Of a DNA stretch of 64,000 bases, positions 25,935 through 34,220 are shown in pieces. Within the stretch, counting starts at the first letter, position 1. Every line of letters starts with the position of its first letter. Source of the stretch: a virus; the IMG/VR virus record IMGVR_UViG_3300034102_002265, positions 1 through 64,000 of that record; one strand, 5' to 3'. The position numbers were made by a program, and so were the translations under genes. The notes below the pieces were generated by a model. That model saw only the letters and a program-made list of their open reading frames with translations, had not been told where the DNA came from and made no database searches.

Positions 25935-26729
25935 ATGATTATATTAACAGGATCACAAGGTTTCATTGGAAAAAACTTTCTTTCCACTATTAAAGAGCCT
26001 ATAATAGAAGTGGAAAAGGATAATGCTTTTCGTTTTATATCTGGGTTTAATCAATGGGATCAAGTATCCTTAATTTTACATCAAGGAGCAATATCTTCAA
26101 CGACTGAGAGAAACATTCAAACGTTACATCACAATAATGTTGTCTTTTCTTTGTTTCTTTTTGAAAAAGCAATAGAGCATGGAATATCAGTAAAATATGC
26201 TTCATCAGCATCAGTATATGGAAATCAAACAAAAAAATCAAAAGTCATAAATCCACTAAATTATTATGCAATAACTAAACTTCAAATTGATTATTTTGTC
26301 CAAGATAATATAGAAAAATTTTCGAGTATTCAGGGATTTAGGTACTTTAATGTTTATGGGCAAGGTGAAGATCATAAAGGTGATCAAGCAAGTCCAATCT
26401 CTAAATTCACAAAACAAATTCGTGAATCAGGAAAATTGAACCTCTTCAGAGGATCAGACAAATTTTTAAGAGACTTCATCTGTGTTGAAGATGTTGTTGA
26501 TGTTGTTTTAAATAATAGCCATCCATCAGGAATCTATGATTTGGGAACAGGAAACCCTATTAGTTTTCAAGAAGTTGCAGAATTAGTCTCAGAAAAAGAA
26601 AAAGGGGAAGTCGAATATATCGACTTCCCCGAACATCTTAAAGGTAAATATCAAGATTATACTTGTGCTGACATGAAATGGATTGGTGACTATAAGTTTA
26701 AAACAGTTAGAGAGTATCTCCTTCAATAA
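25935..26729 (+). CDS. hldD: ADP-L-glycero-D-manno-heptose 6-epimerase (HldD/RfaD/GmhD)
   Basis: TGSQGFIG (GxxGxxG), HQGAISSTTE, YASSASVYG, PLNYYAITK (YxxxK), FRYFNVYG..EDHKG, RDFI. Confidence 0.9.
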   Translation: MIILTGSQGFIGKNFLSTIKEPIIEVEKDNAFRFISGFNQWDQVSLILHQGAISSTTERNIQTLHHNNVVFSLFLFEKAIEHGISVKYASSASVYGNQTKKSKVINPLNYYAITKLQIDYFVQDNIEKFSSIQGFRYFNVYGQGEDHKGDQASPISKFTKQIRESGKLNLFRGSDKFLRDFICVEDVVDVVLNNSHPSGIYDLGTGNPISFQEVAELVSEKEKGEVEYIDFPEHLKGKYQDYTCADMKWIGDYKFKTVREYLLQ

Positions 26730-27066
26730 TACGAATACTATCACTATCGAAATGTTGAGTTGAGAATTCAAACAACTCAGTATCTTCTAAGGCATACATT
26801 CTATGTCTTAATCCAACAGGAACATGAAAGTTTTGACCCTTTTTAAGGGTCCTTTTTTGTGCCAAATTAATGTCATCATCATACCCATAAAAAAGAATCA
26901 ACATTCCAGACTGCACATAGAATGTCTCATCTTTTATGTTGTGATAATGCCAAGAACACTTTTTCCCTTTTACAAAATATAAAAGTTTTCCACAATATTG
27001 TTCATTGTTTACAATCCATTTTTCAAATCCCCATCCTTTGGGGACAAATTTAATTGAAGAAGTCAT
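26707..27066 (-). CDS. Cupin-fold sugar isomerase (mannose-6-P/D-lyxose isomerase-like)
   Basis: KGWGFE, SWHYHNIKDETF (HxH...E), PVGLRHR metal-binding motifs. Confidence 0.75.
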   Translation of the reverse strand: MTSSIKFVPKGWGFEKWIVNNEQYCGKLLYFVKGKKCSWHYHNIKDETFYVQSGMLILFYGYDDDINLAQKRTLKKGQNFHVPVGLRHRMYALEDTELFEFSTQHFDSDSIRIIEGDTL

Positions 27067-27379
27067 CTGCATTCACCGCTTTGTCATCAATGTACATATC
27101 CCCACTTGGTTTGCCCATGATTAATTCATGATACTTGCATCCCCAATCATCCAATTGTGTTTTTGTTAGATTATAAAAATCCGCATAAGCTAGATTTGAA
27201 TTATCAAGATGTCTTCCCATACCACGAGCAGTAAAGTACTTGATAATATGTCCTTCCTCGTAAAGACGATTGATGGTATCAATACGGTCTAACTTTGGAA
27301 TACTATTATGATAGTAACCATCTTCTCTGCAAATGGGTTTATCACAAATTGTTCCGTCGATATCAATTACATAATTCAT
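27050..27379 (-). CDS. HAD-superfamily phosphatase (capless, capsule-biosynthesis phosphatase type)
   Basis: DIDGT, FTARG, GKP, YIDDK motifs I-IV. Confidence 0.85.
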   Translation of the reverse strand: MNYVIDIDGTICDKPICREDGYYHNSIPKLDRIDTINRLYEEGHIIKYFTARGMGRHLDNSNLAYADFYNLTKTQLDDWGCKYHELIMGKPSGDMYIDDKAVNADDFFN

Positions 27380-28118
27380 TCACATCTTCCTTTGATAATA
27401 CGTAAGTTCCTGGATATGATACAGCAATTGCGGCCGCCCTATTAGCAATGGGTATTGCTTCCTCTATTCTACCACAATTCAAATATCCGAACACAAGGGC
27501 AGATAAGAAAGTGTCCCCAGCTCCAACAACATCATAAACATTTACTTTTTCTCCCGGATATACTACTCCATTGTATTCAGCACCTTTTGATCCATGAGTG
27601 ATAATGACATTGGAGTTTTTTTCTTCTAACTTTTCATATTCATGTTCATTGATCTTGACATAACAATTGTATGAAGGAAGAATCTTCTTTTTACTGTCAA
27701 TAAATGTGGGACATTTCATGTTATAAACAATCTCAAATAATTTTGAACTCGTTATAAATCCCTTGTCATAATCACTAATTACGACCGCATCATATGGTTC
27801 ATTTGGAATTTCATATTCCATTGGTTTACAAACAACTTCTTCGTCAACTCTAAGAATTTGTTGATTTGTCCTTTCATCAATATAACGTGTCTTAATAATT
27901 TTTTCTTGATTTGTCATCATATAAACTTCAAGACCTAATGCTTTAAGATTGTTATAGACATTCCATGCCATCCCTTGTCTTGTTTCGGTTTTCTTGTAGT
28001 TTAAGATTGGAACAGGTGCTTCTGGATTCAATCGTTTAACTTCTCCATAAACATATTTGTCTATGCAACTATCTCCGATCAATAATACTTTGAATGATTT
28101 TTGTTGAGGAGTATTCAT
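27363..28118 (-). CDS. hldA: D-glycero-D-manno-heptose-7-phosphate kinase (HldE/RfaE domain I, PfkB family)
   Basis: IGDSCIDKYVYG, RLNPEAPVP, SDYDKG, DVVGAGDT. Confidence 0.88.
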   Translation of the reverse strand: MNTPQQKSFKVLLIGDSCIDKYVYGEVKRLNPEAPVPILNYKKTETRQGMAWNVYNNLKALGLEVYMMTNQEKIIKTRYIDERTNQQILRVDEEVVCKPMEYEIPNEPYDAVVISDYDKGFITSSKLFEIVYNMKCPTFIDSKKKILPSYNCYVKINEHEYEKLEEKNSNVIITHGSKGAEYNGVVYPGEKVNVYDVVGAGDTFLSALVFGYLNCGRIEEAIPIANRAAAIAVSYPGTYVLSKEDVNELCN

Positions 28119-28470
28119 CTATTCTATCAAAAAAAATTAATCTTTTTGCAAACTGAGATCCAATTACTGGTTTATTTTTCCAATCAGAACCTACTATCAT
28201 TATATCTGGATTGAACCCTTTTATCAATTCTTCCAACTCTTTATCATTAGAAAAAGTCTCAACCTGATCTACAGGTTTTAACATATTCAAGAAAAATCTT
28301 CTTTCATCTTGATTGTGTATTGGTCTAGATGTTCCTTTCTTTTCCTTTACCCGTTCGTCGTCATCAATAGCAACTATTAAATAATCACCATAAGATTTTG
28401 CAAAATTCAAAAGTTGTAAGTGGCCTACATGAAGGACATCAAAGGTTCCATTAACAAATATTTTTTTCAT
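28069..28470 (-). CDS. hldC: Heptose-1-phosphate nucleotidyltransferase (HldE/RfaE domain II)
   Basis: NGTFDVLHVGH (HxGH), LIVAIDDD, KGTSRPI, GSDW, YSSTKII. Confidence 0.85.
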   Translation of the reverse strand: MKKIFVNGTFDVLHVGHLQLLNFAKSYGDYLIVAIDDDERVKEKKGTSRPIHNQDERRFFLNMLKPVDQVETFSNDKELEELIKGFNPDIMIVGSDWKNKPVIGSQFAKRLIFFDRIDEYSSTKIIQSIIDRR

Positions 28471-30161
28471 TCGTTAGGAACTTTAACCAATTTTTGAATT
28501 TCGGGAAGATACATATATTCAATATCACTATTCTGAAGGGTATCAATTGCATCAACAATAGTTTCTACAAGAGGATCTCCGCCAAGATTGAATGAAGTAT
28601 TGAAGAGGATGGGAACATCACTCAATTTTTCAAAAGCATCAATAAGTCTATAATAATGATCATTCTGATCTTTTGTAACCGTTTGAATTCTACAAGTTCC
28701 ATCAACGTGAATTACTGAGGGAATTTTTTCTTCAACGCCAGGTAGACAATCTACAGCATACATCATATGAGGAGATTCTTCTCTTCCAGCAATATCAAAC
28801 CATTCATTCACTTTCTCTTTGAGAATTGTACAAGCAAATGGACGGAAGAACTCACGACGCTTAACTTGGTTTACGAGATCCTTGCCATTTTGAATGGTGG
28901 GATCAAAGAGAATTGAACGATTTCCTAGTGCTCTAGGTCCACCCTCTGAACGACCTTGGAAGATAGTAACAATATTACCATCACGAATAAGTTTTGCTAC
29001 CTCGTTATAAGTTGTGGGTTGAACATCCAGTCCTTCTAAATACTCTTCATAAGTTTCTGGATCATACTGAGGGCCATAATAAATTGAAGACTGTCTTTCA
29101 AATGGAGTTTCCATTTCAGTTATTTGTGCATGAGTATATTTTGCACCACCAATAGATGTTCCTCCATCATGGGAGATTGGTTCGCAGTAAATATTGAGAT
29201 CTGGGAATTCTTTCCAATACTTGTAGTTGGCAACACAATTTAGACCATAACCACCGCAGACAACGATATTAGTTTCACCAGTTTCTTCGTGAGCTTTACG
29301 AATGAGATCAATCATTCGGGTTTCAGTTTCCTTTTGTACTAAGAACGCTAAATCTTTTTGAATTTGAGTGTATTCACCTTTAGAATGATTTTTTACATCT
29401 TCGGAAAGAATATCATATCTTTGGTGATTTATTTTAGACCCATTTGGATAATTGGGTACAAATACTTCACGATTTGCCCACCCATTCCTAAAAAGTTCAG
29501 GAAGATCTTGATTTTCTTTTCCATATGGAGACAATCCCATTGTTTTTCCAGCATCTATGGAAGAAAATCCACAATACTCAGTTACCGCTTCATATGTTTT
29601 TGTTAGTCCTGGATATTCTGTGAGAATATATTTCCCATCCTCATCCAATTTAATAATACCGATACTTTCTTTGGATCCAAAATGTTTGTAAACAGAATCG
29701 AACTCTAATGGATATTTTGCTTTAAATATAGATTCAAATTCGTAAATGACTCCTGGACAAGCATCAGTCTGTAAGAAACTTCCAGCACCATCAGCAATCA
29801 CACACGCTGCAGTTTCAAATCCAGAATTTAAAAATGCACAAGCAGCGTGCATTTCATGATGTTTTGTGTCAATAAAATGAGTTTGATATTCAAATTTCTT
29901 TCTAGAAAGTTTTCTTATCCAACCATGATACAGATCTTCCCCAGTCCAATCTAGTTCAGGTCCGTTTCTATGAGTATGACATATTACTAAATGGTCAATA
30001 TGGTCTACATATTCAAATACTTTTAGTAGTCCTAGAAGTGGACTTCCATCGTGTTTCCAACGAGAAAGTCTTTCCTCTTCAACATAAAAAATTACTTCAC
30101 CATCAATCATCAGAGTTGTGCTTGCATTGTGTCCGCGAGCACAGGAAACAATAATACTCAT
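28467..30161 (-). CDS. O-carbamoyltransferase, NodU/CmcH/TobZ family
   Basis: GHNAS, EEERLSR, HHEMHA, DGAG, GKTMGLSPYG, GGYGLNCVAN, GPRALGNRS, KRREFFRPFA, HVDGTCRIQTV, NTSFN. Confidence 0.93.
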   Translation of the reverse strand: MSIIVSCARGHNASTTLMIDGEVIFYVEEERLSRWKHDGSPLLGLLKVFEYVDHIDHLVICHTHRNGPELDWTGEDLYHGWIRKLSRKKFEYQTHFIDTKHHEMHAACAFLNSGFETAACVIADGAGSFLQTDACPGVIYEFESIFKAKYPLEFDSVYKHFGSKESIGIIKLDEDGKYILTEYPGLTKTYEAVTEYCGFSSIDAGKTMGLSPYGKENQDLPELFRNGWANREVFVPNYPNGSKINHQRYDILSEDVKNHSKGEYTQIQKDLAFLVQKETETRMIDLIRKAHEETGETNIVVCGGYGLNCVANYKYWKEFPDLNIYCEPISHDGGTSIGGAKYTHAQITEMETPFERQSSIYYGPQYDPETYEEYLEGLDVQPTTYNEVAKLIRDGNIVTIFQGRSEGGPRALGNRSILFDPTIQNGKDLVNQVKRREFFRPFACTILKEKVNEWFDIAGREESPHMMYAVDCLPGVEEKIPSVIHVDGTCRIQTVTKDQNDHYYRLIDAFEKLSDVPILFNTSFNLGGDPLVETIVDAIDTLQNSDIEYMYLPEIQKLVKVPNE

Positions 30162-30170
30162 AATTTTACC

Positions 30171-31253
30171 TCAATTTTTAATGTCGTTTAATTCCAGAAT
30201 TTGATCAATTGTTTTTTTCTTGGTTGGTTTTGGTTTTTGGAATCCAGGCATTACACTTGGATTTATCGGAAGATTATTTTGACTTGTTCCATTTTTTGAT
30301 ACACCTGATAAATTCAATGTATCATTATTGACCTTACTTACGCCAATTTTATCTTTAATTGATTTGGAAATTTCTTTTATTCTTTCATTACTTAAAATCA
30401 TCAAATCTTCATTATTTCTATCATATTGATCTTCAAAACTTATTCTTATTGGGCTATATTTCCTTCTATTTTTTCCATTATCTACGATATGGAAATTTTT
30501 ATTATTTGGATAGGAAATATTTTCAGGATAAGTTGAACCTATAACTACAGTACTTGGTTTGTTCAATGCATATGCAATGTGTTGACCCATGCTGTCACAT
30601 CCCAGAAAATAGTCGGCAGCATTAATTATACCACCCCATTGTGTAATTGGTACATTCTGAGGACAAGCGACTCCAAGTTTATCCCAATCTGGAATTGGAA
30701 TTTGTGTCATTAAGATGACGCCATAATTTTTCTTCAATTCATCAATAACTTTGTATATATCCGAAAGTTCAAAACTTCTACCTGTGACATCATAAGTAAA
30801 TTTTCCTTCAACTTTTGCAGAACTGCCAAAAGGTTGAAAAACTACAATTTTATCTTTTTTTAGAACTTCTCTTACTTCTTCTACTAGATTATATCCGAAT
30901 ATTTGTTCTTGTTTGTTTAATTCTAAATTAATTTTTTTAGTATCTGGTATATGATTCAGTTCATTGATTAATATATCAAATGCTTGAATCAAATTACACT
31001 CTTGAGTGAAATATGCATTGAGTCTATAGGGTTCTGGACTTACAATTTCCTTATCAAGTAAAAGCGACTCAAATAAATTTTTATGATTAATAGGATAAAC
31101 TTTATCCCTTAGTACTTTACTACAGGAATAAAATTCTCCCCATGATTCGGCAACGACTATAAAATCGTCATGTCTTTTGGCATATTCTTCCAAAGCGGGT
31201 ATGGAACAAAGGACCCTACCCGCACCACCATTGATGAAAAATGCTTTATTCAT
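30171..31253 (-). CDS. GT-B glycosyltransferase resembling GT9 (ADP-heptose heptosyltransferase)
   Basis: N-terminal GGAGRVLCSIPAL (cf. GxGD..xxxPal), VFQPFGS, C-terminal ADYFLGCDSMGQHIAYALNKPSTVVIGST (cf. GT9 DSGxxHxAxAxxxP). Confidence 0.78.
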   Translation of the reverse strand: MNKAFFINGGAGRVLCSIPALEEYAKRHDDFIVVAESWGEFYSCSKVLRDKVYPINHKNLFESLLLDKEIVSPEPYRLNAYFTQECNLIQAFDILINELNHIPDTKKINLELNKQEQIFGYNLVEEVREVLKKDKIVVFQPFGSSAKVEGKFTYDVTGRSFELSDIYKVIDELKKNYGVILMTQIPIPDWDKLGVACPQNVPITQWGGIINAADYFLGCDSMGQHIAYALNKPSTVVIGSTYPENISYPNNKNFHIVDNGKNRRKYSPIRISFEDQYDRNNEDLMILSNERIKEISKSIKDKIGVSKVNNDTLNLSGVSKNGTSQNNLPINPSVMPGFQKPKPTKKKTIDQILELNDIKN

Positions 31254-31295: not shown

Positions 31296-31302
31296 TATTT
31301 AT
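31296..31302 (-). promoter_or_regulatory. Late promoter (ATAAATA) heading the GT9-carbamoyltransferase-heptose operon
   Basis: AAATAAATAAC about 45 nt upstream of the GT9 ATG; AAGGTGG ribosome-binding site. Confidence 0.65.
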
Positions 31303-31332: not shown

Positions 31333-32397
31333 TTATTTAAAGCAAATACAAACCAATCCCATTTTACCAGAACAATCCCCATACATACCAACCGCACCAC
31401 CAAAAGCACTTGAAGGCCAACCACCCGCACTAGGAACTCTTAATCTGCCACAACATGCTTGGTTAGCCGAACCGCAACAGATACCATCATAGAAAACTGT
31501 ACACTGAGACTCGGAAAGGAATCCAAAAACTGGTGGGTGACAGTAACAAGCCGCATTATTATTACCGCAACTGCATAGAGATGAGAACATTCCTTTTATT
31601 CCATATATCGAGCCAACAGGAGATGATCCATAATAATTTGCTCCAGGGGTGAATGGATGAATGCAGCATACGCCAACACCAGTTGCTGACCAACATCCAA
31701 AACTACCTCCCCCACAAACAGCGTATCCACATCCTTGACTACATTTTGATCCAAAATAACAAGAAGATACGGCATATCTGCCATTACATACCATCCACTT
31801 ACCCAGTTCCCCAATACCACCATCTACACAGAAATTGCATAATCCCGGTCCTTGAACGAAGGATTTATCTCCGTCTGGTCTATGGCAACCATATGTACAG
31901 TATGCACAAATTCTTGGAGCACATCCACTATGGATTGTATAAGTTGCTCCAGCTGTTACAGGAATAATAAGTGATGCATATGCACCAGTTCCACCAAAAG
32001 GAGATATAGAACAACACATTCCTCCACTACCAGAACCAGATCCAGCACCCCAAATCTGGAATCTTGCACAAGTTACTCCACTAGGAACAGTCCAAGTACA
32101 ATCCTTACCCTGAGAGAAATATTGATTAACAACACCATCATCCCCACAAACAGTAAATCCACCAGTCCATCCGGAACCAGCTGCTACACAAGACCAAAGA
32201 CTTGTTTGAGCTGGATTTGCTAGTAATGAAGGTTCTATGCACCGAACCCAACAACTATATTCAGGAGTAAACAAACTTGCAGAAACCGCAAGAGCAGTAG
32301 TTTGGGGTCCTTTTACAGCTATGCAAGCGCTCTTTTCGGAAACTTGAGTAGTTAAATAGTCTTTTGCATTTTCTGCACTGTATCTTAATACATCCAT
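31333..32397 (-). CDS. Cys/Gly-rich fibre or receptor-binding-like protein (paralogue 2)
   Basis: About 35 Cys in 354 aa; CTWTVPSGVTCARFQIWGAG glycine-rich phage domain. Confidence 0.75.
   Translation of the reverse strand: MDVLRYSAENAKDYLTTQVSEKSACIAVKGPQTTALAVSASLFTPEYSCWVRCIEPSLLANPAQTSLWSCVAAGSGWTGGFTVCGDDGVVNQYFSQGKDCTWTVPSGVTCARFQIWGAGSGSGSGGMCCSISPFGGTGAYASLIIPVTAGATYTIHSGCAPRICAYCTYGCHRPDGDKSFVQGPGLCNFCVDGGIGELGKWMVCNGRYAVSSCYFGSKCSQGCGYAVCGGGSFGCWSATGVGVCCIHPFTPGANYYGSSPVGSIYGIKGMFSSLCSCGNNNAACYCHPPVFGFLSESQCTVFYDGICCGSANQACCGRLRVPSAGGWPSSAFGGAVGMYGDCSGKMGLVCICFK
32042..32074. repeat. 33-bp exact direct repeat shared by the two Cys-rich genes (second copy 33898-33930)
   Basis: ccagcaccccaaatctggaatcttgcacaagtt at both positions. 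Confidence 0.9.
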
Positions 32398-33104: not shown

Positions 33105-34220
33105 TTATTTAAAGCAAACACAAACCATTCCCATTCTACCGGCATCACCACAAATCGATAAACAACCACCAGCAACTTGCATCGCAAAACCACCAGAACC
33201 AGGAAGTAAAAGAGATGCAAGTACTGCACCAAAAGTAGCGCTAGCCGAACAGTAGTTTCCACCACAACTGGTGGAACTACTGAGAGAAAATACGCACTGT
33301 GAAGATGATTCGAATCCATAAATTGGTGGATTTTTGTGATACCCACATTTACAGTAGTGGGCCATACAACTCTCTCCATATGCACCAGCAATACCATAAA
33401 CAGTTCCACCTGTAGCTGAACCATAAGATAATGCTGAAGAATGGTACGCAGGAAGCATCATGTGGGGATTACTTGAAAATCCACTTCCACAACACTGGAT
33501 AGTAGGAACTGCTTCATTGAATGGAGTACTAATCGTTGTAGAACAGAAACTAGATCCAGTACCACAAATGCAATATCCAAGAAATGACTGACAAGTATAT
33601 GCAGGTCTAGCGTCTATAATACCAGTTTTATAATAATAAACATCTCTATCAATCATTTGTTGACAAAGATTTCCTATTCCACCCATGGCACAGAAGTTTG
33701 TTAGTCCAGGCCCAGTGATATAAGAAGCACAACCATTTCCATTACTTATACAGTTCCAACATCCATAACAACATAGAGCGCAACCAGCACAAAGAATATA
33801 TTGACATCCAGCAGTTACAGGCATAATAACTGATGCATAAGCTCCACTTCCACCAAAAGGTGATCCTCCACAACAACCAGCAGCACCAGAAGAACCACCA
33901 GCACCCCAAATCTGGAATCTTGCACAAGTTGCCCCACCAGGCACTGTCCATGTACAAGTAGCTCCACATCTAAAAAATCCAGAAGTATCGCAAACTTTAA
34001 ATCCAGAAGTCCATCCAGAACCAGTCTCTACACAAGCCCACAGTTCTGGTCTAGGAATTTTACCATTAATAATACTAGGAGCATTAGTATTAACAGTGGA
34101 CAAATAAGTGCTACAATTACTATTTAAAGTAGAAATACATGATGTTAAGGTATTATTGCAAGTCCTTAAAGGTTGATTTTGTTTATTTAAGGAGTTGTAT
34201 GCTAAAACGTCTATTGTCAT
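33105..34220 (-). CDS. Cys/Gly-rich fibre or receptor-binding-like protein (paralogue 1)
   Basis: About 36 Cys in 371 aa; CTWTVPGGATCARFQIWGAGG; C-terminal GRMGMVCVCFK. Confidence 0.75.
   Translation of the reverse strand: MTIDVLAYNSLNKQNQPLRTCNNTLTSCISTLNSNCSTYLSTVNTNAPSIINGKIPRPELWACVETGSGWTSGFKVCDTSGFFRCGATCTWTVPGGATCARFQIWGAGGSSGAAGCCGGSPFGGSGAYASVIMPVTAGCQYILCAGCALCCYGCWNCISNGNGCASYITGPGLTNFCAMGGIGNLCQQMIDRDVYYYKTGIIDARPAYTCQSFLGYCICGTGSSFCSTTISTPFNEAVPTIQCCGSGFSSNPHMMLPAYHSSALSYGSATGGTVYGIAGAYGESCMAHYCKCGYHKNPPIYGFESSSQCVFSLSSSTSCGGNYCSASATFGAVLASLLLPGSGGFAMQVAGGCLSICGDAGRMGMVCVCFK

What the first reader, a model, noticed from the sequence alone, without database searches (positions are those of the whole stretch)
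26707..27379. Possible non-orthologous replacements for GmhA and GmhB
Seen: the cluster has the kinase, nucleotidyltransferase and epimerase but no SIS-domain GmhA and no canonical GmhB. Instead a metal-binding cupin and a minimal HAD phosphatase are translationally coupled into the operon. Established: cupins catalyse aldose-ketose isomerisations. Inference: the cupin converts sedoheptulose-7-P to heptose-7-P and the HAD removes the 7-phosphate, which would be a new route to ADP-heptose.
Basis: inference. Interest (0 to 1): 0.7.

Follow-up and report, generated by a model that had tools for sequence, protein, structure and literature searches.

The report
Cupin and mini-HAD complete phage heptose pathway
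A marine cyanophage carries a five-gene ADP-heptose pathway in which a small metal-binding cupin most likely replaces the usual first enzyme (GmhA) and a 109-residue HAD phosphatase replaces GmhB; no enzyme assay has tested either swap.

Summary
The window is part of a T4-like cyanophage related to P-SSM2. Window 26707-27379 holds two overlapping minus-strand genes: a 121-aa His3/Glu cupin and a 109-aa cap-less HAD. They are chained to an HldA-like kinase, an HldC-like nucleotidyltransferase, a carbamoyltransferase and a GT9-like gene, with an HldD-like epimerase convergent on the other strand.

No SIS-fold GmhA and no HAD-IIIA GmhB was found in this record or in five complete cyanophage genomes that carry the same five genes.

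- **Cupin:** its nearest solved relatives by profile are D-lyxose/D-mannose isomerases. It occurs fused to the heptose kinase, the nucleotidyltransferase or the HAD. In DPANN archaea it heads operons of the form cupin-HldD-HldA-GmhB/HldC. Among kinase-bearing genomes it never co-occurred with a strong GmhA (0 of 39, against 15 of 25 without the cupin).
- **HAD:** its closest characterised relative is phage HY126 AfhF, an arabinose-1,5-bisphosphate 5-phosphatase. That is the same type of reaction as GmhB.

Caveats are that nothing has been assayed, that many family members lie outside heptose clusters, and that most genomes compared are incomplete MAGs. Public records mislabel the HAD as "phosphoheptose isomerase" and the cupin as "cysteine dioxygenase". 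This scan has flagged the same swap many times on other DNA.

The parts
26707..27072 (-). 121-aa metal-binding cupin (alternative start at 27066). Proposed sedoheptulose-7-P to D-glycero-D-manno-heptose-7-P isomerase, standing in for GmhA.
   Evidence: Cupin_2 hit. Family-invariant residues are N22, Y26, C27, K29, H42, H44, K47, E49, H90, E102 and D111. The family profile hits D-lyxose isomerases 2y0o (E 5.8e-10) and 7nzo (E 2.2e-9). AF2 model pLDDT is 95.5.
27050..27379 (-). 109-aa cap-less HAD phosphatase. Proposed heptose-1,7-bisphosphate 7-phosphatase, standing in for GmhB.
   Evidence: Homologous to PDB 9iqw (phage HY126 AfhF, arabinose-1,5-bisphosphate phosphatase; E 2.6e-11) and to 1xpj. 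Weak TIGR01689 hit. HAD motifs are invariant in the alignment. NT::HAD and HAD::cupin fusions exist.
27363..28118 (-). HldA-like (RfaE domain I) pfkB kinase, shortened to 251 aa. Proposed heptose-7-P 1-kinase.
   Evidence: TIGR02198 E 2e-41 (142 bits, below the equivalog cut-off) and a PfkB hit.
28069..28470 (-). HldC-like (RfaE domain II) nucleotidyltransferase, 133 aa.
   Evidence: TIGR02199 E 1.6e-31 and CTP_transf_like hit.
25935..26729 (+). HldD-like ADP-glyceromanno-heptose 6-epimerase, 264 aa. It converges on the cupin gene with a 23-nt overlap at the 3' ends.
   Evidence: TIGR02197 E 2.5e-64 (217 bits; cut-off 274.6).
28467..30161 (-). NodU/CmcH-type carbamoyltransferase in the same overlapping gene chain.
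   Evidence: Carbam_trans_C E 9e-59 and Carbam_trans_N E 5.5e-22.
30171..31253 (-). GT9-like (heptosyltransferase-like) glycosyltransferase, the first gene of the chain.
   Evidence: Only weak hits: PF01075 at 19.5 bits (below cut-off) and RfaQ-type models at E 2e-4. Strong match to phrog_8954, function unknown.
31296..31302 (-). ATAAATA, resembling a T4-type late promoter core, about 45 nt upstream of the GT9-like start. Inference only.
   Evidence: Read directly from the sequence.

Best explanation
The seven-gene chain encodes a self-contained ADP-heptose pathway plus two tailoring or transfer enzymes.

Proposed steps (all inferred):
1. The cupin, using a His3/Glu-bound divalent metal and a cis-enediol mechanism like its D-lyxose/D-mannose isomerase relatives, isomerises sedoheptulose-7-P to D-glycero-D-manno-heptose-7-P. 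This is the GmhA step.
2. The HldA-like kinase phosphorylates C1.
3. The small HAD removes the 7-phosphate from the 1,7-bisphosphate. This is the GmhB step, and the same chemistry as its relative AfhF performs on arabinose-1,5-bisphosphate.
4. The HldC-like enzyme makes ADP-D,D-heptose.
5. The HldD-like enzyme epimerises C6.

What is shown: the genes, their overlaps, their motifs, their homologies, the natural fusions, the operon contexts and the GmhA/cupin exclusivity. What is inferred: the substrates and every catalytic step. The use of the product by the GT9-like enzyme and the carbamoyltransferase, possibly on virion proteins, is further inference.
For: 1. **Slot-filling.** The module has exactly five candidate enzymes for five steps. 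GmhA and GmhB are absent from five complete cyanophage genomes of five genera that keep genes T4-GC 304-308 together despite rearrangement.

2. **Co-occurrence in phages.** All 31 cyanophage or marine-virus records that hit with the kinase also hit with the cupin.

3. **Fusions of the cupin family.** It occurs as kinase::cupin and cupin::kinase (P0157, P0170), NT::cupin (P0128, P0135, P0160, P0222) and HAD::cupin (P0127, P0278 and others).

4. **Archaeal operons.** In the DPANN locus L074 the order is cupin, HldD (265 bits), HldA (399 bits, over cut-off), then a GmhB::HldC fusion, with a GT9 gene upstream. Every canonical enzyme is present except GmhA. Eleven loci have this layout and eleven more have kinase::cupin reading frames.

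5. **Exclusivity with GmhA.** In a sample of 251 genomes of one archaeal class, 32 have the kinase. Of those, 15 have a strong GmhA (at least 177 bits), 7 have the cupin, and none has both. Pooled, 0 of 39 cupin-plus-kinase genomes have a strong GmhA, against 15 of 25 kinase genomes without the cupin (Fisher p = 2e-8).

6. **Homology of the cupin.** Its best PDB profile hits are D-lyxose/D-mannose isomerases. They share N22, YCxK, HxH, KxETF, H90 and ExS. Related fusion proteins score on PF01050 (PMI type II) and PF07385. Foldseek ranks D-lyxose isomerases first. Those enzymes interconvert ketoses and manno-configured aldoses, which is the stereochemistry GmhA produces (established chemistry).

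7. **Homology of the HAD.** It matches AfhF (9iqw) at E 2.6e-11. PMC13326640 describes AfhF as a Mg2+-dependent phosphatase converting Araf-1,5-bisphosphate to Araf-1-P between a kinase step and a nucleotidyltransferase step. NT::small-HAD fusions mirror the GmhB::HldC fusions. In cupin loci, the phage type has the small HAD and no GmhB, while the cellular type has GmhB and no small HAD.
Against: - No enzyme of this cupin family or of this phage module has been assayed.
- 48 of 80 cellular cupin loci show no kinase within 10 kb. Some are isolated next to housekeeping genes (aRF1, DnaJ), and 8 of 23 such genomes had no HldA-like kinase detected. The family may therefore have other or broader substrates.
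- Weak GmhA-like SIS proteins (42-117 bits) occur in 8 of 18 operon-bearing genomes. In two CPR loci (L019, L064) one lies about 6 kb from the cupin.
- Most comparison genomes are MAGs of unknown completeness and are phylogenetically related, so the p-values are optimistic.
- D-lyxose isomerases act on unphosphorylated sugars, and a phosphate site in the cupin is not demonstrated.
- HAD::SIS fusions sit in NeuB/PseF-type ulosonic-acid clusters, so the small HAD family is not heptose-specific.
- The window's kinase, NT and epimerase all score below NCBIfam equivalog cut-offs, so the exact sugar is not certain.
- The window's own record is only 36% complete.
- Host gmhA status could not be tested.
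Confidence: 0.72

Rival explanations
1. The cupin is a sugar or sugar-nucleotide tailoring enzyme, for example a CapF-like 3-epimerase, a Pac13-like dehydratase or a KdgF-like enzyme, acting after ADP-heptose is made. Heptose-7-P would then come from a host GmhA or a promiscuous host isomerase.
For: CapF cupin domains, Pac13 and KdgF score as high as the isomerases in structure comparison. A weak WbuC-family hit was seen. At least one Prochlorococcus encodes a GmhA-like SIS domain (P0321).
Against: Profile-sequence matches favour D-lyxose isomerases by three or more orders of magnitude over CapF. The module has no 4,6-dehydratase to supply a keto-sugar for a CapF-type reaction. In DPANN and CPR genomes with complete operons, no GmhA reaches the cut-off, so those pathways would lack a first step. 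Kinase::cupin fusions join what would be steps 1 and 2. Cyanobacterial LPS is reported to lack heptose (PMC4390846).
Confidence: 0.12
2. The cupin is a true isomerase but on a different substrate, such as fructose-6-P to mannose-6-P, free sedoheptulose, or another ketose phosphate. The module would then make a different NDP-sugar.
For: Relatives include PMI-type cupins (PF01050 in HAD::cupin fusions; T. kodakarensis PMI 7zvy among the hits). Stand-alone family members occur in genomes with no detected heptose kinase. The window's kinase, NT and epimerase score below equivalog cut-offs.
Against: An HldD-type C6 epimerase, which is meaningful only for a heptose, travels with the cupin in the phages and in 11 archaeal operons. 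A route through a kinase and then a phosphatase implies a phosphorylated substrate carrying a terminal phosphate, which matches S7P. The exclusivity is specifically with GmhA.
Confidence: 0.1
3. The small HAD is not the 1,7-bisphosphate phosphatase. It dephosphorylates some other intermediate or product, for example a phosphosugar acid as in the HAD::SIS clusters, and the GmhB step is done by a host enzyme.
For: HAD::SIS fusions of the same HAD family lie in NeuB/PseF/PseC-type clusters, not heptose clusters. The TIGR01689 score is far below its cut-off.
Against: Its closest characterised relative, AfhF, removes the terminal phosphate of a sugar-1,omega-bisphosphate. There are many NT(RfaE-II)::HAD fusions. 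It is strictly adjacent to the cupin and kinase in phage modules, and it is replaced by GmhB in cellular cupin operons.
Confidence: 0.1

Closest known systems
GmhA, sedoheptulose-7-phosphate isomerase (SIS fold; TIGR00441, PF13580; EC 5.3.1.28)
   Same: The proposed reaction is the same, as is the position at the start of the ADP-heptose pathway. The cupin occupies GmhA's place in operons and is mutually exclusive with it.
   Different: The fold is unrelated: a cupin beta-barrel with a His3/Glu metal site against the SIS alpha/beta fold. There is no sequence similarity and no SIS hit anywhere in the phage.
[not shown]
   Same: Cupin fold. Shared residues are N, YCxK, HxH, KxETF, a distal His and ExS. 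Both make manno-configured aldoses from ketoses. Some family members reach the Pfam cut-offs for these families.
   Different: The window protein is much smaller (121 aa against about 170-230 aa). It lacks the insertion between HxH and K. It does not itself reach either Pfam threshold. Its presumed substrate is a 7-carbon sugar phosphate.
GmhB, D,D-heptose-1,7-bisphosphate phosphatase (HAD-IIIA; TIGR00213, TIGR01656)
   Same: Same HAD superfamily, also cap-less, with the same proposed reaction. GmhB structures appear as weaker fold matches (4pnh, 3l8h, 2gmw). Both occur fused to HldC-type nucleotidyltransferases.
   Different: The window HAD has 109 aa against about 180. It gives no HAD-IIIA HMM match (for the genomes). 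It belongs to a different HAD subfamily, the one around TIGR01689.
AfhF of phage HY126 (PDB 9iqw), D-arabinose-1,5-bisphosphate phosphatase; also V. cholerae 1xpj; TIGR01689 (EcbF/BcbF)
   Same: This is the closest sequence and structure relative (E 2.6e-11, 34% identity). It is phage-encoded and Mg2+-dependent, and it removes the terminal phosphate of a sugar-1,omega-bisphosphate between a kinase step and a nucleotidyltransferase step (PMC13326640).
   Different: The sugar differs (pentofuranose against heptose), and so do the pathway product (UDP-Araf for DNA modification) and the partner isomerase (SIS-type arabinose-5-P isomerase).
Cyanophage 'LPS/heptose' gene cluster of P-SSM2 and relatives (T4-GC 304-308)
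   Same: Orthologous genes: the cupin is 65% and the HAD 57% identical to PSSM2_312 and PSSM2_311. The order and neighbours are the same.
   Different: Nothing is structurally different. The difference is in labelling: public annotation calls the HAD 'phosphoheptose isomerase' and the cupin 'cysteine dioxygenase'. PMC7378029 repeats the 'phosphoheptose isomerase' label.

Membership tests
GmhA (SIS-fold S7P isomerase) | SIS domain matching TIGR00441 or PF13580 | tested here: not met
   The cupin and HAD give no SIS hit. There is no SIS_2 or gmhA match in the own record or in five complete relatives.
Cupin superfamily, metal-binding | Two cupin motifs supplying His, His, Glu and His ligands, plus a beta-barrel fold | tested here: met
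   [not shown]
D-lyxose isomerase family (PF07385) | Match to the Pfam model, with conserved YCxK, HxH...KxE, distal His and ExS residues | tested here: inconclusive
   The window protein does not reach PF07385. The family profile hits 2y0o and 7nzo at E about 1e-9 with those residues aligned. Relatives P0196, P0170 and the L050 cupin exceed the Pfam cut-off.
PMI type II cupin domain (PF01050) | Match to PF01050 | tested here: inconclusive
   The window protein gives no hit. HAD::cupin fusions P0271, P0331 and P0333 hit at 45-81 bits, and P0331 aligns to the window cupin at E 5e-12.
S7P isomerase activity (EC 5.3.1.28), by function | Catalysis of S7P to D-glycero-D-manno-heptose-7-P | not testable with these tools
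   The support is indirect only: operon slot, fusions and exclusivity with GmhA.
GmhB (HAD-IIIA heptose bisphosphate phosphatase) | Match to TIGR00213, TIGR01656 or NF006506 | tested here: not met
   The window HAD gives no such hit. TIGR01656 is absent from the own record and from five complete relatives.
HAD superfamily phosphatase | Motifs I (DxDxT), II (T/S), III (K) and IV (DD), plus a Rossmannoid fold | tested here: met
   D6, D8, T10, T50, K90 and D99 are invariant and D98 is nearly invariant (90% or more) in 23 sequences. AF2 pLDDT is 85. The fold matches 1xpj, 9iqw, T4 PNK phosphatase, HisB-N and GmhB.
AfhF / TIGR01689 small sugar-bisphosphate phosphatases | Sequence homology to AfhF (9iqw) or to TIGR01689 above its cut-off | tested here: inconclusive
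   Clear homology to 9iqw (E 2.6e-11) and 1xpj (E 2.4e-7). TIGR01689 scores only 30 bits against a cut-off of 162.
ADP-L-glycero-beta-D-manno-heptose pathway | HldA/HldE-I kinase, HldC/HldE-II adenylyltransferase and HldD epimerase all present | tested here: met
   Domain-level matches: TIGR02198 E 2e-41, TIGR02199 E 1.6e-31, TIGR02197 E 2.5e-64. All three are below the equivalog cut-offs, so the family-level assignment is met but exact specificity is unproven.

The most novel reading that the evidence does not exclude
The cupin defines a large, unnamed family of metal-dependent sedoheptulose-7-phosphate isomerases, a second and non-homologous solution for EC 5.3.1.28. This family supplies heptose in cyanophages, DPANN archaea, CPR bacteria, Bdellovibrionota and Planctomycetota. 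In cyanophages it makes the virus independent of the host, whose LPS lacks heptose, for making ADP-heptose. The GT9-like enzyme and the carbamoyltransferase then attach that heptose, carbamoylated, to the phage's own virion proteins late in infection.
Probability: 0.3. Interest if true: 0.8.

Novelty: new variant of a known kind. Interest (0 to 1): 0.62.

Why it matters
**Pathway biology.** ADP-heptose synthesis is textbook biochemistry with a single known enzyme for its first step. GmhA is pursued as an antibiotic-adjuvant target, and ADP-heptose is a bacterial innate-immune signal in mammals.

**Annotation.** A second, unrelated isomerase family would explain 'broken' heptose pathways in many small-genome archaea and bacteria, in Planctomycetota and in marine phages. 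It would correct widespread misannotation in cyanophage genomes, where the HAD is called 'phosphoheptose isomerase' and the cupin 'cysteine dioxygenase'. It would also change how metabolic reconstructions score heptose capability.

**Phage biology.** It implies that cyanophages carry a complete, host-independent route from the Calvin-cycle and pentose-phosphate intermediate S7P to an activated heptose. That makes the long-unexplained 'LPS genes' of P-SSM2-type phages directly testable.

Tried and rejected
Contexts of the fusion proteins P0157, P0170 and P0128 could not be read directly, so I used the search for related loci instead.
- **First genome scan failed.** The 32-row alignment was too diverse. 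A 9-row alignment worked.
- **Host check not possible.** No handle for a marine Prochlorococcus or Synechococcus genome could be obtained. Only a review statement that cyanobacterial LPS lacks heptose is available.
- **HAD::SIS fusions are not direct evidence.** I first read them as proof that the small HAD partners GmhA. Their loci turned out to be NeuB/PseF/PseC-type ulosonic-acid clusters without heptose genes. They explain the 'phosphoheptose isomerase' mislabel but are not heptose evidence.
- **P0301 in viral contigs** found nothing.
- **Two non-cyanophage phage records** with a distant pfkB kinase (LR756501, MT838225) have neither GmhA nor the cupin, which is uninformative.
- **No transaldolase** in the own partial record.
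- **Literature searches** for cupin with GmhA, ADP-heptose or sedoheptulose gave nothing relevant. 9IQW, bcbF and TIGR01689 gave nothing useful.
- **The tree is only the quick version** with few columns. I use it only to say that heptose-linked members occur in both halves of the family.
Full report
**What is in the window.**

The 64-kb window belongs to a 76.7-kb viral record estimated at 36% complete. Its nearest isolates are T4-like cyanophages (Kyanoviridae) such as P-SSM2, P-SSM5, S-CAM3 and S-CAM1.

Between a structural-gene block and two Cys-rich phage proteins lies a chain of overlapping minus-strand genes:
- GT9-like gene, 30171-31253
- carbamoyltransferase, 28467-30161
- HldC-like nucleotidyltransferase, 28069-28470
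- HldA-like kinase, 27363-28118
- 109-aa HAD, 27050-27379
- 121-aa cupin, 26707-27072

An HldD-like epimerase (25935-26729) sits convergent on the plus strand. The finding's coordinates are exactly the HAD and cupin ORFs. Gene overlaps of 4-50 nt join the whole chain. An ATAAATA late-promoter-like core precedes the first gene (inference only).

**Absence of the canonical enzymes.**

Neither GmhA (TIGR00441, PF13580) nor the HAD-IIIA domain of GmhB (TIGR01656) is found in this record. Because the record is partial, I repeated the searches on five complete genomes from five cyanophage genera that carry the same five genes: P-SSM2, S-CAM3, S-SSM7, P-TIM68 and S-SM2. None has either canonical enzyme.

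In those genomes the five genes (T4-GC 304-308) stay together although their order and neighbours differ. In the GenBank phage collection, all 31 cyanophage or marine-virus records that match the kinase also match the cupin.

**The cupin.**

It has both cupin metal-binding motifs. Across 32 relatives N22, Y26, C27, K29, H42, H44, K47, E49, H90, E102 and D111 are invariant or nearly so.

These enzymes interconvert ketoses and manno-configured aldoses. That is the stereochemical outcome of the GmhA reaction (established chemistry).

**Fusions and operons.**

An exhaustive search found 3,638 relatives of the cupin. Among the best 150 are natural fusions:
- kinase::cupin and cupin::kinase
- nucleotidyltransferase::cupin
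- HAD::cupin

Of 80 cellular loci with the cupin, the contexts are:
- 11 loci, mostly DPANN archaea, show the operon cupin-HldD-HldA-GmhB(::)HldC.
- 11 loci (CPR, Bdellovibrionota and others) have the kinase and cupin in one reading frame, often with HldC and GmhB nearby.
- 6 phage-like contigs repeat the window's order NT-kinase-HAD-cupin.

In the Woesearchaeota locus L074 every canonical ADP-heptose enzyme is present at high score except GmhA. The cupin is the first gene of that operon, and a GT9 heptosyltransferase lies upstream.

**Exclusivity with GmhA.**

- None of 18 genomes with such operons has a GmhA over the curated cut-off. Five have weaker full-length GmhA-like SIS proteins of 88-117 bits.
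- In an even sample of 251 genomes of the same archaeal class, 32 have an HldA-like kinase. Of these, 15 have a strong GmhA (at least 177 bits), usually next to the kinase. Seven have the cupin, two of them as kinase::cupin fusions. None has both (hypergeometric p = 0.006).
- Of 23 genomes whose cupin stands alone, 15 have the kinase elsewhere, including 5-6-Mb Planctomycetota. None has a strong GmhA.
- Pooled, 0 of 39 against 15 of 25 (Fisher p = 2e-8).

These p-values ignore shared ancestry and MAG incompleteness. One of the 18 genomes (G009, locus L068) is flagged as unpublished. It contributes one row to the tallies, and no conclusion depends on it.

**The HAD.**

All four HAD motifs are invariant or nearly so in the alignment. 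Its closest solved relatives are PDB 9iqw (E 2.6e-11) and 1xpj. The fold search names 9iqw as phage HY126 AfhF, a D-arabinose-1,5-diphosphate phosphatase.

PMC13326640 summarises the HY126 work. AfhF is a Mg2+-dependent phosphatase that converts Araf-1,5-bisphosphate to Araf-1-P, between a kinase step and a nucleotidyltransferase step. That pathway logic is identical to GmhA, HldA, GmhB, HldC.

GmhB structures are weaker fold matches. The small HAD is frequently fused to RfaE-II-type nucleotidyltransferases, mirroring the GmhB::HldC fusions. In cupin loci the small HAD and GmhB replace each other.

**A correction to a tempting argument.**

The same HAD is also fused to GmhA-like SIS domains, for example a Prochlorococcus sp. 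MIT 1223 protein that UniRef names D-sedoheptulose-7-phosphate isomerase. This explains why cyanophage HADs are annotated 'phosphoheptose isomerase'.

The metagenomic loci of these fusions, however, lie in NeuB/PseF/PseC-type ulosonic-acid clusters, not heptose clusters. The small HAD is therefore a general sugar-phosphate phosphatase module. The HAD::SIS fusions are not heptose evidence.

**Limits.**

- Nothing has been assayed.
- 48 of the 80 cupin loci have no kinase nearby. Some are isolated next to aRF1 or DnaJ, and 8 of 23 such genomes showed no kinase at all. Other substrates within the family are therefore possible.
- A quick tree places heptose-linked members in both halves of the family. 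The window falls within a phage-type clade.
- Host genomes could not be searched.

**Comparison with the literature and verdict.**

The cyanophage cluster itself has long been known as 'LPS/heptose genes'. I found no paper linking a cupin to GmhA, ADP-heptose or sedoheptulose.

This scan has noted the same substitution many times on other DNA, and earlier follow-up agents reached the same reading. Those notes are not independent evidence, and I reproduced the key tests here.

The pathway is the known one, with two non-canonical enzymes. The cupin substitution appears undescribed. The HAD belongs to the recently characterised AfhF-type family.

Noticed in passing
L001 4683-5364 (P-SSM2 PSSM2_311/312); also L002, L105-L107: RefSeq and PHROG annotation call the HAD 'phosphoheptose isomerase' (phrog_1238) and the cupin 'cysteine dioxygenase' (phrog_7851). 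Both labels look like transfer errors. The first probably comes from HAD::SIS fusion proteins.
   Followed up: yes
L120 7129-13730 (marine metagenome contig); L108-L143: Small-HAD::GmhA-like-SIS fusion genes sit in clusters with a short NeuB-like synthase, an SDR, a TIM-barrel epimerase, a PseF/KdsB-like cytidylyltransferase and a PseC-like aminotransferase. This looks like an uncharacterised ulosonic-acid pathway in low-GC marine genomes.
   Followed up: partly
window 31333-32397 and 33105-34220 (-): Two paralogous Cys- and Gly-rich proteins of about 360 aa (phrog_35878, no Pfam hit), ending in VCICFK and VCVCFK, lie directly upstream of the heptose chain. They are possible acceptors of the sugar.
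   Followed up: no
L106 1935-3080 (P-TIM68); L107 1-264 (S-SM2): In two other cyanophage genera a 'transketolase central region' gene lies at or close to the heptose kinase. In P-TIM68 it directly abuts the kinase. In S-SM2 one hypothetical gene (264-1076) lies between them. This may relate to S7P supply. Not examined.
   Followed up: no
window 27363-28118 (-): The HldA-like kinase is shortened to 251 aa, against about 315. It matches TIGR02198 in three separate stretches.
   Followed up: no
window 30171-31253 (-): The GT9-like protein reaches only 19.5 bits on PF01075, below the cut-off. It is a well-conserved phage family of unknown function (phrog_8954).
   Followed up: no
G274, G282, G285, G286, G288, G289 (Planctomycetota genomes behind L022, L043, L047, L051, L059, L060): HldA-like kinase domains (312-348 bits) lie inside open frames of 465 aa (G274) to 1389 aa. 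These 2.7-5.7-Mb genomes show no GmhA-like match at E <= 1e-10 (best cut-off 209 bits) but do have a stand-alone cupin of this family.
   Followed up: partly
L019 16519-17698; L064 16228-19478: In two CPR genomes a weak GmhA-like SIS gene (56-99 bits on TIGR00441) and a second GmhB-like gene lie about 6 kb from the kinase::cupin cluster. This could be a second sugar-phosphate pathway, or a counter-example to strict exclusivity.
   Followed up: no
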